From positions 37,386,001 to 37,450,000 of the forward strand of contig OZ024745.1 in assembly GCA_964016885.1 (NCBI GenBank): a stretch of 64,000 nucleotides of DNA, in the 5' to 3' direction. The DNA comes from Eledone cirrhosa (lineage: Eukaryota). Within the stretch, counting starts at the first letter, position 1. Every line of letters starts with the position of its first letter. This document shows, one piece after another, positions 11,877 to 62,573 of this stretch. The position numbers and the translations under genes were made by a program. The notes under the pieces were generated by a model. It did no database searches, was not told the origin of the DNA, and saw only the letters and a list, made by a program, of their open reading frames with translations.

Positions 11877-12505
11877 CGTTTCTGAATTTGTTTAGCAAGA
11901 TTCTTTATCTGAAAACGTGTGTTGAAACCGATATTGTTATGCTTTGGCAGGGTCGTGTTGCCAATAAGAAACACGCGCACCAGTTGCTTTCACTCCAATT
12001 TATTATAAATTAAATTCATAAATTTAAGAATTTATCAATTTCCGGTTGGTTGGTTGGTTCCATAACCGGACGGTTGTTCATATATTGTCAAAGTTCTTTC
12101 GTCACACATTCTGCGACTTCTTCAGTGACTGGGCATTCTTTTCTTTGTTTTGTGCCTCTCCTTTGTTCTGTCCTACGCCATCTTGTTTTTGTGTGTGTTG
12201 TGTGCTTAGTTTGCGCATGTGTAACACATGCGCAAACTAAGTTTTTGTTTTTGTGTGTGGTGTGTGCTTAGTTTGCACATGTGTTACACATGCGCAAACT
12301 AAGCACACAACACTGAAAAGGTCACATAATGTGTGACTAAAGAACTTTGACAATATATGAACAACCGTCCGGCTATGGAACCAACCAACCAGCCGGAATT
12401 TTATAAATTCTTAAATTTATAAATTTAATTTATAATAAATTAGAGTGAAAGTAACTGGTGCGTGTGTTTCTTATTGGCAACATGACCCTCCCAAAGCATA
12501 ACAAT
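11877..12505. mobile_element. Fold-back HHR element in (TA)n
   Basis: About 11933-12127 is the diverged reverse complement of 12311-12505; (TA)n on both flanks; internal hairpins TTAGTTTGCGCATGTGTAACACATGCGCAAACTAA (twice). Confidence 0.85.
12087..12129 (-). ncRNA. Minimal type I hammerhead ribozyme motif
   Basis: GUCA-CUGAAGA-A-GUCGCA(GAAUG)UGUGAC-GAAA-G(AA)C-UU/UGAC: stems I and II, 2-bp stem III, CUU cleavage triplet; decayed mirror copy at 12311-12351(+). Confidence 0.8.
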
Positions 12506-13919
12506 ATATATATATATATATATATATATACACGCACCTCTTCTTCCCGCCACTCCTCTCTCTCTCTCTCTCTCTCTATCTATCTCTCCCTCTCTCTCTC
12601 TCTCACACACACAAATGCAAACACTGACACTCACTCTTACACACACACACTCAATTATTCTTCCTTCTCTTTCTTATACACACACAGTTTTCTCTCCCTC
12701 CCTTCTCTCTGTCTCCTCCTTCTCCTACCCTTCTTTTTACACACATGCCCGCTCTCTCTCTCTCCCTTCCCCCCTCTCTCTCTCTCTCTCTCCCTCTCTC
12801 CCTCTCTCTCTCTCTCTCTCTCTCTCTATTTCCCCACGAAGCTATATATATATATATATATATATATATTATATATATATATATACAGATTTATATACTC
12901 TCAAGCGTGAAACTAAAAACCATACCATTTGTACTGCCTCTCTGTTTTTTTGTTCTCTGTCCAGTCCATTTATTCAACTATATATATATATATATATATA
13001 CATATATATATATATATATACATATATATATATATATACATATATATATATATATATATATATATATATATATATATATATATATATATATATATATATA
13101 TGTATATATATACATAGATTATACATGTCTACCCAGATCCAAACAACATACATGACCTCTCAAGCTTCCGAGAGAACTCAACATGTGCTATGAAGTCATC
13201 CTTATTTTCAGCTACACAGAACATTTTTATATGACCCTCAGCCATCGTGAACATAACAGAAACAGCCATATGCCAAGAGCAAAAGCTCCCTACTTTTACA
13301 TCATTGTCAGGTAAGAGATAATACCCAGTGACCTCTATTGGTAATCATGTTATCTAGCATGACATGTGCCTAACATGACAGCTATTGATAATGTCGGTAA
13401 TCCTACCAAGTTTACTAGGTAAAAAGCATGATTATTAATACACTAGGATTGGAAAATAAAACATTGTGAGAAGGGTCGATAAATTCAGAACAACAACATC
13501 CAAACATCCAATGAATACTCATTATATGTTCCCTGGTAATCATTCAAACGAACAGAGATGGATTTTCTTTGTCCATTGTGTAAATTATGCAGGTGCTATT
13601 AGCACCACTTCTTCACACTGCAAATAGAGAGTTGCTCATCTTAACAGGCCCTCATATCCAGTTCACCAAACTTCAGTACGAACATAAAAGCGTAACAGTA
13701 GAGGCGAAGGGTATTCTACCCTGAACTAACTATTGTAAAGTGGTACTACAGTATCTAAAGGGCTGCAAAATAATATTTATGCTACCATAAATAATACGTA
13801 AGAATCCTGATTAGATTTTCAGCCAGGGACCCCAGCATGCTTAATCCGCCTCTGCCAATGGGTTCTCACTCGTGTGTGGGTGCGAAATCCTAAAGTGTAA
13901 CTGTATGTACTTTTTCAAA

Positions 13920-14255
13920 TAATTATTTCTACGTTAGGCACAAGGCCAGCAATTACCCAGTGTATTACTGGTACTTTATTTTATCGACCCCGTAAGGATG
14001 AAAGGCAAAGTTAACCTCGGCGGGATTTGAACTCAGAATGGCAAGGGGCGTAACTCTATGCGCCAAAGCATGGCATCCGACACTCTACCAATACTGCCAA
14101 TTTAAAATGATGTCATGTTTTATCTATCGCGACGATTTGGCAGTCGCTAGAAGGTCGGCTAGAATACTTTGCGGCATTCATTCCGGCTCTCTGAGACCAA
14201 AAACCGGTAGAGTTAACTTTCGTCCTGTCGAAGACAATAAAAGAGGTACCAGTCC
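13920..14255. mobile_element. Two Nin-domain-like SINEs head-to-head (13920-14100 -, 14135-14255 +)
   Basis: Family consensus motifs. Confidence 0.75.
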
Positions 14256-15039
14256 AATAACGAATCTGATTCTTCCTCTGTTTCTTTTTCTCACTTTTTT
14301 TTCACACACTCACTTTCTCTGGAAGAAATCGGCTGTGATCAAACCTGAAGAGAAAATGGATTCCCCTGTGTTTTTAAGAAAGTAGCTAAGTGTGCATCCC
14401 TTCAAGACCACAAAGAGTTACGTGTGCAAACATATTTTATCTATTATTTGTTCTCTTCAGAACAAGTTTAGCTGAACGACAGAATTGTCTGCATCTACCA
14501 AATGCATTTTCATTTATGTGTGTGTGGAAAAAGCCTAAATAATATTCTATTTTACCTATTATGTTACAATTATAGTTATAGATTTATTCTATATCCATTA
14601 TTTTTTCACTCTAAATTTTAAGTCTTCTGTATAAAACATCTCTGAAGTACTAGCCTCCTTTCTTTTAATATATATATACATATATATATATATCATTTTT
14701 CCTTCATCCACACACGTTTCAGAAAATCCTTTTTATGACGTTTTGTGTAGTTAGTTGCATGTATAATCGAAATTGAATATAATTGCTGTCTGTTAGGGGT
14801 AAAAAAAAAAAATAATATCATCATCATCATCATCATCATCATTATCATCTCTATCATCATCGACTTCGTCATTGTCGTCATCGTTGTCATCGTTGTCATC
14901 GTCACGACTGATACCACTGTTGCTGCTGCTGTCTAATCTCTTTAATTACTTTCCATCAATATAGATCACGAACGACATAGGTTTAATTCTGAGAATATTC
15001 AGACAGAAAAAGATTTATAACGTGTCACTTACTGTTGTT

Positions 15040-16050
15040 ATGGCAACTGCTGGTCCCACCGTAAACCTCGCCACACACACCTCATACAGCCACGCCACTG
15101 CCCCATCAATCTTCCCACGCCAGCATTATGATACCACCACCAAACACATCACCATCAACCTCACCCTCCACCGTCATCTACCACACATCACCCACTATCA
15201 TCACCAATATTGCAACGTCGGCCTCTTATACAATCAACCCCACCACATCAATATCAGCTACACCTAACTATCCTTAACCACATCACTCTAGTGTTAATCA
15301 CACCACTTCACCACCATTCTCACTACTCCCCCCTCAACTACATCACAGACACATCACCCACACCACTCCACCATTAAACCCCAAACACCACCATCAAAAA
15401 CAGCACACCATCACCAACTCTAATATTATACCATCAACCATGCCACAACACTATCATCAACCACACTATGCCACTATCACTCATACCACGCCACCATCAA
15501 CAACACTGCTCCAATGTAAAGCACACAATATGACTTTTAACCACACAACCCAGCCATAAACTTCACAACTCCACCATCAACCATACAATTCTCCCATCTA
15601 TACCATTCTACCATTAAACCATATCTCCCCACCGCACCACCATTAATTATACCACTCCACCAACCTCCACACAGCAACATCATAAATCGCATAATTCCAC
15701 AACACATTACACCACACCTCCCCTTAAACACATTACTCCAACATAAACATACAACTCCACCATTAACCTTACTCCACTACTATCAACCTCACAACTTTTC
15801 CCTCAAATTCCCTACTCTACCATCAACACACCCACCACTTCACCATCAACCTTACCACTTCACCATCAACTACACCCCTCTTACATAAAACAAACTACAC
15901 CACCATTAACCTTACCCTACTACCATCAACCTCTCAACTTCACCCTCAAATTCCCTATTCTAGCATCAACTCCCCTCATCCCACTATCATCAACACCAAC
16001 CCACTACCATCAGCCTCACCACTCTACCACCCCACCCTCCACCACATTAG
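15040..16050. repeat. Degenerate CA/ACC-rich low-complexity array
   Basis: Repeated CACCATCAAC-like words. Confidence 0.85.
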
Positions 16051-60980: not shown

Positions 60981-61764
60981 ACAGGGTAGAATAACAGATA
61001 AGACCCCAGAGAAACAATTTGAAAACTAGGTTGTTTTATGGTCCCGATGTTGCAGGATGGAATTGTCGCTTCTGACAATATTGAAGTGAGTTAAGTAGTT
61101 TATTTTTGTGGGATGGGGTCTCAGATGGTGAGTGTTAGATCCTGGGTCGAATTATTGGACTCGATTAAATCAACTTCATTCCGTCCCTAAACAATTATAG
61201 TCTTGTAACATTAATGCTAGAAGTCAGTATTATCACCATCAAGCTGATTATTAGAAGCGGTAAAGGGACGCGGGCAATATGTTTTGCTGGATTTAGTTAT
61301 GTCACTTTATATTCTGAGTTCAAACCTCGCTCAACTTTTCTTTGCCTTTCATCTACTGGGGTTAATTCCATTTACTGTTCCCTTTAGGCGTGCCCCCCCC
61401 CCCCAAAAAAAAACATTTATTGACATTATCATCAGAGAAATAGACTGACAGAATCGGAAGGCAGAGTGATGAATTAAATTGCTTGTCATATTTTGTTATG
61501 ACCCTTTACGTTTTGTTTTGTATATGTGTCGGTAGAAAAATATATCACTCAAATAACGTGATGATTTAATCAAATTTTCTATCCCTAAAAATTATTATTA
61601 AAGGTTGAATATGGGCGTCTCGATAACAAGAAAACTCGAGATATGCTTTTATTCTTTTAACTGTTTCAGTCGTTGGACAGCCACCATACTGAGACACCCC
61701 ACTTGAATGAATTTAGTCGAACATATTAGCCCCAGGATTTAAGTCTGGTACTTATATATATATA

Positions 61765-61863
61765 CAGGGTGTCCTAAAAAATGTATACAAATTTTGATTA
61801 CATATACAGGCATATTTCTTAGAATGCTGTTGAAGTGTGTATACATTTTTGGGGGACACCCTA
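61765..61863. mobile_element. Tc1/mariner-type MITE of about 100 bp
   Basis: TIRs CAGGGTGTCCTAAAAAATGTATAC / GTATACATTTTTGGGGGACACCCT; TA flanks. Confidence 0.8.
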
Positions 61864-61906
61864 TATATATATATATACATATTTCTCTGTATATATATAT
61901 ATATAT

Positions 61907-62573
61907 AAATGTAGTCTGAGTTTTTCGAATATTAATAATAACATTCGATTCGTTTGCAATTATGCAAACAAGCCTTAATTTTATAGCCATGTCAGTAGAA
62001 TGAACACTTCATTCTTGCTCTTATGTTAACATGCGAACAGAACTTCAGACACTAATGTTTCGGTGTATCAGCCTTCATCAGCACAGCTCACTGTTCACCT
62101 GCCAAACTGTCAGAGCTAGTGAAAATATATGCTATTTTCAAAAATACACAGTGACTGATCGGCCTGATTTGCATATTAGCAGATTGGCTGATCAGTCAGA
62201 TCTGCATATTAGCAGATCCACTGATCAGCCAGATTTGGATATCAGCAGACTGGCCAGTCAGTTTCCTGTATACGAGCGATAAATGGCCGGCTTTGCCAAA
62301 TTCAAATAAAAAAGAAAATTTCGCTCTACATGGAAACATTAGTGTCTGCAGTTCTGTTCGCATGCCAACATAAGAGCAAGAATGAAGTGTTCATTCTACT
62401 GACATGGCTATAAAATTGAGGCGTTTGCATAATTGCAAACGATTCGAATGTTATTATTAATATTCGAAAAAAAGTAGAAACAATAAAGAAAAAGTAGAAA
62501 CAATTATTAATATTCGAAAAACTAAGACTACATTTATTGTATTCAGCCATGTAGAGCGAAATTTTCTTTACTG
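61907..62573. mobile_element. Fold-back HHR element in (TA)n with a permuted monomer of about 440 nt
   Basis: About 61921-62061 mirrors 62333-62470; 62311-62333 mirrors 62547-62569; three internal 33-bp repeats at 62154-62255. Confidence 0.85.
62035..62096 (-). ncRNA. Type I hammerhead ribozyme motif
   Basis: GAACAG..CUGUG-CUGAUGA-A-GG(CUGAUACA)CC-GAAAC-A(UUAG)U-GUC/UG(A/C)AG..CUGUUC; the mirror arm starts exactly at GAAAC (62333). Confidence 0.78.

What the first reader, a model, noticed from the sequence alone, without database searches (positions are those of the whole stretch)
11877..62573. A system of unrelated hammerhead-ribozyme mini-retroelements that all insert into (TA)n as head-to-head fold-backs
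Seen: four sequence-unrelated non-coding elements (11877-12505, 29053-30362, 40702-41547, 61907-62573) each contain a complete type I HHR motif, sit in (TA)n and consist of two inverted arms. In all four the ribozyme-sense strand is - on the left arm and + on the right, so both 3' ends face outward into TA. The two arms end at different internal positions. Further families (28816, family F, 55813) share the geometry with half-motifs. Established: Penelope-like elements carry HHRs in their pseudo-LTRs, form tandem and 5'-inverted copies and favour AT-rich targets; small HHR retrozymes form circular RNAs in animals. Inference: a diverse set of non-autonomous retrozymes mobilised by a PLE RT/GIY-YIG, using twin priming or snap-back at TA microsatellites. 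A PLE endonuclease fragment lies in TA in the same window. This density, diversity and consistent fold-back geometry may be undescribed in this lineage; I cannot verify novelty.
Basis: partly seen in the sequence, partly recalled or inferred. Interest (0 to 1): 0.92.

Follow-up and report, generated by a model that had tools for sequence, protein, structure and literature searches.

The report
Penelope retroelement fold-backs with paired ends
These ribozyme-carrying, back-to-back repeats are insertions made by Penelope-like retrotransposons, a known kind, but nearly every fold-back has one short and one long end, which points to two separate copying events per insertion and offers a test of how these elements move.

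Summary
In detail: four unrelated type I hammerhead (HHR) elements, head-to-head arms, 3' ends in (TA)n. The reading needs three corrections.

(1) Not all are non-coding. 11877, 28816 and family F are 5'-truncated ends of autonomous Penelope-like elements (PLEs): one has a 1238-codon RT plus GIY-YIG frame, two are Hydra-clade. Only 29053, 40702 and 61907 look like non-autonomous tandem retrozymes.

(2) Not all copies fold back: 70 of 101 sampled.

(3) Head-to-head geometry, (TA)n targets, HHRs and a one-sided 'tail' are published PLE features.

Not found in my literature searches: each family has two fixed 3' ends, and 50 of 54 classifiable fold-backs carry one of each. Either arm can be the longer, which a snap-back cannot give. 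The retrozymes obey the same rule, up to 12+6 near-identical units around one junction.

Best model: both nicked target strands prime reverse transcription, one at each of two internal RNA start sites, and the two cDNAs are end-joined. Rolling-circle copying, ribozyme cleavage and expression are untested.

Verdict: a known system with a useful mechanistic signature; new variant of a known kind, interest 0.5.

The parts
11877..12507 (.). Family A fold-back: two short copies of the terminal repeat of an autonomous PLE. Left arm (-) ends at the long site (+214 from the cleavage site), right arm (+) at the short site (+160); patchwork junction about 12220-12311.
   Evidence: full-length parent in L211
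12087..12129 (-). Type I HHR of family A (CUGAAGA..GAAA, CUU triplet). The right-arm copy at 12311-12351 (+) is degenerate.
29053..30364 (.). Family B retrozyme fold-back, 467-bp unit, arms 100% complementary over 619 nt, junction at 29666 with 1 nt overlap. Left end short (+229), right end long (+303).
29275..29319 (-). Type I HHR of family B, left arm (7-bp stem I, palindromic stem III)
30024..30068 (+). Type I HHR of family B, right arm
40702..41546 (.). Family C retrozyme fold-back, 320-bp unit. Left arm about 1.7 units ending short (+143), right arm ending long (+169). Junction about 41232-41235.
41335..41379 (+). Family C HHR with a U3-A8 core (UUGAUAA). Further copies at 40817-40861 and 41137-41181 on the minus strand.
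61905..62569 (.). Family D retrozyme fold-back, unit about 435-443 bp. Left end short (+143), right end long (+175). Junction at 62333.
62040..62089 (-). Type I HHR of family D. The right arm holds only the 3' half (62333-62351).
28816..29003 (.). Family E fold-back: terminal piece of a Hydra-clade PLE; short end left (+38), long end right (+104)
39876..40073 (.). Family F fold-back (terminal piece of a second Hydra-clade PLE); long left, short right
43876..44072 (.). Family F fold-back; long left, short right
49392..49545 (.). Family F fold-back; long left, short right
55500..55694 (.). Family F fold-back; short left, long right
50739..51122 (-). 5'-truncated Hydra-type GIY-YIG endonuclease fragment, with TA at its truncated 5' end; a third family, not shown to be the partner of any element here

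Best explanation
All are insertions made by Penelope-like RT-endonuclease proteins. SHOWN: A, E and F are 3' ends or terminal repeats of autonomous PLEs. B, C and D are tandem, circularly permuted HHR units with no coding parent found. Every family has two fixed 3' ends in TA, 26-77 nt apart, and a fold-back nearly always has one of each. INFERRED: the protein, probably as a dimer, nicks both strands of (TA)n. Each 3'-OH primes cDNA synthesis on the sense RNA, one at the proximal and one at the distal internal start site. The two cDNAs stop independently, or both run off the RNA 5' end (E, F, part of A). They are then end-joined head-to-head, often with a few added or patched bases. If one cDNA is lost, a solo copy results. 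For B the template is probably a monomeric (sometimes dimeric) circle or a multimer made by HHR cleavage, which gives clonal arrays on both arms. This last step is the weakest, about 50%.
For: [quoted passage not shown] The A tail encodes codons near the start of that frame (RVT_1 E 6e-4; weak I-TevI match E 0.29). E and F continue into CxCX5C/CxxC/CxH proteins, the Hydra signature, and E aligns by eye with Hydra-1_Obim. Short/long rule: 50 of 54 classifiable fold-backs in A-D are mixed (A 12 of 13, B 9 of 9, C 17 of 19, D 12 of 13), binomial P 2e-11 against 0.5. Where the query forced one long end, the other was short in 15 of 15 (E) and 21 of 21 (F). In long inverted copies of the coding families, 7 of 8 are mixed. 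In A and B the short-ended arm reaches further 5' in 9 cases, the long-ended arm in 10, equal in 2 (read), so neither arm is a copy of the other. Junctions: 36 of 50 carry extra bases, and 8 of 14 clean ones have at least 2 nt of microhomology against 17% in a null. B arrays have one junction and a locus-specific haplotype on both arms. Independent short-read contigs show varied arm-to-arm joints and TA loose ends at both end sites. In vitro, an anole PLE nicks and extends both strands, starts at two internal sites bounding the tail, and is predicted to be a dimer (PMC11167929).
Against: No biochemistry and no RNA data. There are 4 same-type fold-backs (L045, L072, L082, L096) plus L214, and 16 of 70 fold-backs could not be classed. 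In the older families the two arms are not more alike than arms of other loci (within below the between-locus median in A 4 of 9, C 9 of 21, D 14 of 20; only young B shows it, 5 of 6), so a single template is supported only for B. Clonal arrays could also come from unequal crossover after insertion. Symmetric, palindromic junctions in E, F and part of A fit self-priming too. Loci are the best-scoring 30-40 matches per family, not a random sample. The partner proteins of B, C and D are not identified. The short end of C lies in TA-like sequence and is blurred.
Confidence: 0.65

Rival explanations
1. Self-priming or snap-back: one cDNA (or an antisense template) folds back and is copied, giving the inverted arm. 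This is the model proposed for rotifer Penelope in PMC3846280.
For: Some junctions are symmetric and palindromic: A at -93/-93 in 3 loci, E near -28, F at -36 to -41 in HHR stem II. Microhomology is enriched at clean junctions.
Against: A copy of the first cDNA cannot gain a tail it lacks, nor reach further 5' than it. Both situations are common (9 against 10 cases in A and B; B arrays of 1+8 and 12+6 units). 36 of 50 junctions carry extra bases.
Confidence: 0.15
2. Same twin insertion, but the long B arrays grew later by unequal crossover or came from a linear multimeric transcript; no RNA circle is involved.
For: Clonal units and a 467/480 alternation also follow from local duplication. The 2026 preprint favours local tandem amplification. 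HHR cleavage was dispensable for insertion in vitro.
Against: Both arms are expanded and share one haplotype, with 1 substitution and 1 slip in 16 whole units at the C3 locus. Slips in two arrays fall at unit positions 211-215, just before the short start site.
Confidence: 0.3
3. Fold-backs are two independent neighbouring insertions, later DNA rearrangements, or assembly artefacts.
For: TA runs attract repeated insertions (nested families in many flanks). The B palindrome in the window is perfect. No laid contig bridged the window's own junction.
Against: There is no TA between the arms, polarity is fixed and the short/long pairing is 50 of 54. Old fold-backs have diverged arms (3-5%). Short-read contigs hold many other arm-to-arm joints.
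Confidence: 0.06
4. Foldback DNA transposons or MITEs with fixed terminal inverted repeats.
For: Short E and F copies look like small palindromes of similar size. Four E copies share one junction (the query selected for it).
Against: Junctions and lengths vary, the two ends differ, copies are 5'-truncated, solo and tandem copies exist, and A, E and F continue into RT/GIY-YIG frames.
Confidence: 0.02

Closest known systems
Endonuclease-containing Penelope-like elements: Hydra clade (E, F; Hydra-1_Obim of Octopus bimaculoides) and Nematis/Neptune type (A)
   Same: RT plus C-terminal GIY-YIG, HHR in the terminal repeat, 5' truncation, inverted 5'-truncated copy, tail at one end, (TA)n targets, terminal repeat overlapping the start of the frame (PMC8557442, PMC3846280)
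   Different: These are other families. Tails are 26-77 nt. The papers call the tail 'optional' or 'often at one end'; here the pairing is near-strict and counted.
Metazoan non-LTR retrozymes (PMC7229834; bioRxiv 10.64898/2026.07.22.740005)
   Same: Non-coding tandem units of 320-467 bp, one type I HHR per unit, low GC, co-occurrence with PLEs
   Different: They are described as direct tandems: 'inverted' occurs 0 times in PMC7229834 and only in a reference title in the preprint. Here they carry PLE-type two-ended, head-to-head insertions in (TA)n, evidence of PLE-type insertion that does not rely on sequence likeness.
Poseidon_Ac in vitro system (PMC11167929)
   Same: Two internal start sites bound the tail, AT-rich target, both strands nicked and extended, predicted dimer
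   Different: In the text I read (parts 1-2 of 4) it does not link the two sites to the two arms of inverted insertions, and it does not treat non-autonomous units.
L1 twin priming (recalled, not looked up)
   Same: Both target ends prime cDNA, giving a 5' inversion
   Different: L1 arms cover non-overlapping parts of the RNA. Here both arms copy the same 3' region from two fixed sites.

Membership tests
EN+ Penelope-like element (family A) | Single frame with RT and C-terminal GIY-YIG endonuclease | tested here: met
   L211 1238-codon frame, YVDD, YIGE motif. RVT_1 E 6e-4, below the curated cut-off. GIY-YIG seen by motif and a weak PDB match (E 0.29), not by Pfam.
EN+ Penelope-like element (family A) | Pseudo-LTR with HHR, optional tail, inverted 5'-truncated copy | tested here: met
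Nematis versus Neptune clade (family A) | CX2-5CxxC linker, CCHH, and placement in an RT tree | tested here: inconclusive
   Linker and CCHH-like residues are present, and the short linker resembles the Nematis rows of the published alignment. No tree was built.
Hydra clade PLE (families E, F) | CxCX5C linker; CxxC and CxH around the conserved E and N; C-terminal EN | tested here: met
   Definition; sequences; by-eye match of E to Hydra-1_Obim
Hydra clade PLE (families E, F) | RWK and DKT motifs at the N-terminus; monophyly | not tested
   The open frames fetched do not reach the N-terminus; no tree was built.
Hydra clade PLE (families E, F) | HHR and (TA)n insertion | tested here: met
Non-LTR retrozyme (families B, C, D) | Tandem units of about 150-450 bp, each with a type I HHR | tested here: met
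   467, 320 and about 440 bp units, B slightly above the quoted range
Non-LTR retrozyme (families B, C, D) | No coding capacity | tested here: met
   No copy among the 30 loci per family joined an RT/EN frame. For D, 150 hits had open frames of 44-311 aa, and the longest was not inspected. A rare coding parent is not excluded.
Non-LTR retrozyme (families B, C, D) | Self-cleavage of transcripts | not testable with these tools
   Motifs are minimal with palindromic stem III, the kind that may need dimers or protein.
Non-LTR retrozyme (families B, C, D) | Expressed as linear and circular RNA | not testable with these tools
Type I hammerhead ribozyme | CUGANGA and GAAA cores, NUH site, stems I-III with open stem I | tested here: met
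   C and F use UUGANAA; tolerance of this U3-A8 exchange is recalled, and search found nothing. Rfam gathering score was not reached.
MITE or Foldback DNA transposon | Fixed, matching terminal inverted repeats | tested here: not met
   Ends differ in 50 of 54, junctions vary

The most novel reading that the evidence does not exclude
PLE insertion is two-ended by nature. The two subunits prime from the two nicked target strands at two dedicated RNA start sites, so tail and inverted copy are one phenomenon. Hammerhead retrozymes are RNA circles that keep both sites and are inserted by double rolling-circle reverse transcription, giving head-to-head clonal arrays in a single event. This genome holds many such families and may owe part of its (TA)n to the process.
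Probability: 0.35. Interest if true: 0.75.

Novelty: new variant of a known kind. Interest (0 to 1): 0.5.

Why it matters
How PLEs, the closest retroelement relatives of telomerase, make tandem and inverted insertions is stated as open in PMC8557442 and PMC11167929, and PMC3846280 proposes self-priming. The short/long rule gives a sharp prediction that the existing in vitro system can test. It also gives structural evidence that animal retrozymes are inserted by PLE proteins, where current support is co-occurrence and terminal-repeat likeness. The young family B (99-100% identical copies) is a good substrate for testing circle-templated insertion. In practice it also warns that such palindromes can be mis-annotated as MITEs or miRNA hairpins.

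Tried and rejected
Rfam: no hammerhead reached a gathering score, and the miRNA hits are TA or palindrome noise. Single-strand folding gave no z-score support. RNA evidence: no RNA holder listed; the laid runs were contigs of unrecorded kind, so their depth was not used as copy number or expression. The same-template test failed in A and C, was weak in D and was positive only in B. A search for a coding parent of D through its short frame found nothing clear, and B and C have no comparable frame. Pfam does not recognise the Hydra-type proteins. One search was a poorly aimed long query, but it revealed another family with the same polarity. The flanks of the 55806-55943 family could not be examined. 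HHR cleavage as the source of 5' ends: only 2 of 17 D left-arm ends lie within 1 nt of the cut, too few to use. Earlier scan notes: none found. Literature searches found no paper stating the short/long pairing or head-to-head retrozyme arrays. The library lacks most subscription papers (for example Arkhipova 2006, Evgen'ev and Arkhipova 2005, Cervera and de la Pena 2014), and Repbase and Dfam were not available. The preprint's supplements were closed and may list such structures.
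Full report
SETTING. The window is G000:C5:37386001-37450000 of a 3.0-Gb animal assembly. It is probably an octopus. That is an inference from a SINE I recall as octopus-type and from the likeness of family E to Hydra-1_Obim. I name the families A (11877), B (29053), C (40702), D (61907), E (28816) and F (four copies). Positions written +n or -n are relative to the predicted HHR cleavage site.

OBSERVATION. All four elements are present as a minus arm followed by a plus arm, with TA outside. Each has at least one type I hammerhead motif. A descriptor scan found 6 sites against a mean of 0.33 in 30 shuffles; a second version found 4 against 0-2. Rfam recognised only B, below its gathering score. 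The cores are conserved across copies (26, 28 and 25 of 30 for A, C and D). C and F use UUGANAA in place of CUGANGA, a compensatory exchange whose tolerance I recall but could not find in print. Stem III is minimal and mostly palindromic. Monomer folds are no more stable than shuffles, and several window copies are decayed. Activity is untested.

WHAT THE FAMILIES ARE. Genome searches gave 1062, 2814, 2327, 1106, 1234 and 647 first-look candidates for B, A, C, D, F and E, of which 40 each were scored and 30 fetched. These are best matches, not a random sample, and not copy numbers.

Longer A copies continue upstream into a GIY-YIG and RT frame. L211 is complete: an inverted truncated copy, the terminal repeat, a 1238-codon open frame, and the terminal repeat again. 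The 'tail' encodes codons near the start of that frame. The short Zn-finger linker looks Nematis-like; no tree was built. E and F continue into proteins with the CxCX5C, CxxC and CxH motifs that define the Hydra clade. Their 'half-motifs' are whole HHRs in long copies.

B, C and D instead run into themselves as tandem units of 467, 320 and about 440 bp. None of 30 loci per family joined a coding frame, and a search with D's short frame gave open frames of 44-311 aa in 150 hits. They fit non-LTR retrozymes as far as sampled.

GEOMETRY. 3' ends abut at least 6 nt of TA in 84 of 99 copies of A-D, against 8.9% of random flank sites (some misses are mapping errors). Fold-backs make up 15 of 30 (A), 9 of 11 independent insertions (B; one contig-edge copy dropped), 23 of 30 (C) and 23 of 30 (D). 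That is 70 of 101, or 66 of 97 without the window's own copies. The rest are solo 5'-truncated or direct-tandem copies. Polarity was head-to-head throughout, apart from one plus-then-minus join without TA (L110).

THE SHORT/LONG RULE. Each family has two fixed 3' ends: A +160/+214, B about +231/+303, C +143/+169, D about +143/+175, E +38/+104, F +20/+97. Of the 70 fold-backs, 54 have both ends at these sites, and 16 were set aside because an end was truncated or atypical. Fifty of the 54 have one short and one long end (46 of 50 without the window's copies; P 2e-11 against 0.5). The exceptions are L045, L072, L082 and L096. Several calls were corrected by eye, and L108's end at +126 was counted as short. 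In E and F the query forced one long end, and the other was short in 15 of 15 and 21 of 21, with 2 atypical copies dropped in each. Long inverted copies of the coding families were mixed in 7 of 8. All nine A-F fold-backs in the window obey the rule. In A and B the short-ended arm reaches further in 9 cases, the long-ended arm in 10, and they are equal in 2.

JUNCTIONS AND ARRAYS. Of 50 junctions in A-D, 36 carry extra or patched bases, and 8 of the 14 clean ones have at least 2 nt of microhomology against 17% in a null. In E and F both arms tend to stop at the same place (-28 to -38 and -36 to -46), and A piles up near -90 to -110 (the queries partly select for this). I infer run-off at an RNA 5' end or a strong stop. 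Three B arrays have a single junction and mixed ends: 12+6 units with one substitution and one 9-nt slip in 16 whole units; 5+4 units sharing 13 differences from the first array on both arms; and 1+8 units alternating 467/480 (with L010). Arm-to-arm likeness within a locus was seen in B (5 of 6) but not in A (4 of 9) or C (9 of 21), and only weakly in D (14 of 20). Public short-read contigs (4 of 6 listed runs laid, kind unrecorded) show 12 listed arm-to-arm joints at varied places and TA loose ends at both B end sites. None bridged the window's own junction.

MECHANISM. A snap-back copy cannot gain a tail that its template lacks, nor reach further 5' than its template, and both cases are common. 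The arms are therefore two RNA-templated cDNAs. The simplest account is twin target-primed synthesis by a PLE protein that nicks both strands of (TA)n, with one primer at each internal start site, followed by end-joining (confidence 0.65). It matches the in vitro behaviour of Poseidon_Ac. Rolling-circle copying for B is plausible, but later tandem expansion or a linear multimer explain the arrays about as well.

WHAT IS KNOWN, AND WHAT I READ. PMC8557442 (passages, the Hydra section, supplement rows and one alignment part) describes the inverted 5'-truncated copy, a tail often at one end, (TA)n targets, HHRs in Hydra, and Octopus Hydra and Naiad families. PMC3846280 (passages) reports head-to-head as the most frequent form, a tail on one inverted repeat, and the self-priming hypothesis. 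PMC11167929: parts 1-2 of 4. bioRxiv 10.64898/2026.07.22.740005 (parts 1-3 of 5 and passages; supplements closed) treats retrozymes as non-autonomous PLE derivatives. PMC7229834 and PMC8969392: passages. L1 twin priming is recalled. Ten searches found no statement of the strict pairing or of head-to-head retrozyme arrays, but key subscription papers and Repbase were out of reach.

VERDICT. This is a real, genome-wide system of a known kind. The added value is the counted short/long rule, the argument against snap-back, and its extension to retrozyme arrays. New variant of a known kind; interest 0.5.

Noticed in passing
Related copies lie in the flanks of L056 and L209.
   Followed up: partly
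window 55988-56122: Another TA-flanked fold-back with a short and a long arm; similar copies in the flanks of L190 and L192. HHR not checked.
   Followed up: no
window 55806-55943: About 140-bp imperfect inverted repeat, not in TA. Genome copies are about 75% identical and of similar length; it may be an old MITE.
   Followed up: partly
L163:1-640: A tandem HHR family (unit about 422 bp) that is 61% identical to family B along the whole unit (E 7e-32). Its paired genome hits show the same minus-then-plus polarity, so retrozymes form a clade here.
   Followed up: partly
all fetched loci (986 kb): The descriptor found 399 HHR-like sites in 21 recurring motif classes, roughly 15 distinct families, with stems that vary in compensating ways. 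The genome is very rich in HHR elements.
   Followed up: partly
solo copies of A-D: The 5' flank has TA in only 10 of 35 copies classed as solo, while 3' flanks mostly do. L108 has a TA run inside a unit at the short site. This could be target deletion, or TA added at initiation; unexplained.
   Followed up: no
L122, L123: 9-nt and 13-nt duplications inside B arrays lie just before the short start site (unit positions 211-215), as if RT slips when it passes that site.
   Followed up: partly
L211:2353-6066: The family A protein has an Asn/Thr/His-rich stretch in its N-terminal part. Asn-rich inserts are described for rotifer Penelope in PMC3846280.
   Followed up: no
window 44877-47120 and 58599-59354: Tandem and dispersed 3' fragments of a LINE with a zf-RVT domain and (TCTA)n-like tails
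   Followed up: no
window 42422-42470 (-): A 49-bp solo tail fragment of family C
   Followed up: no
window 24234-24549 and 56354-57403: 74-bp tandem repeat, and a nested tandem or duplicated repeat family
   Followed up: no
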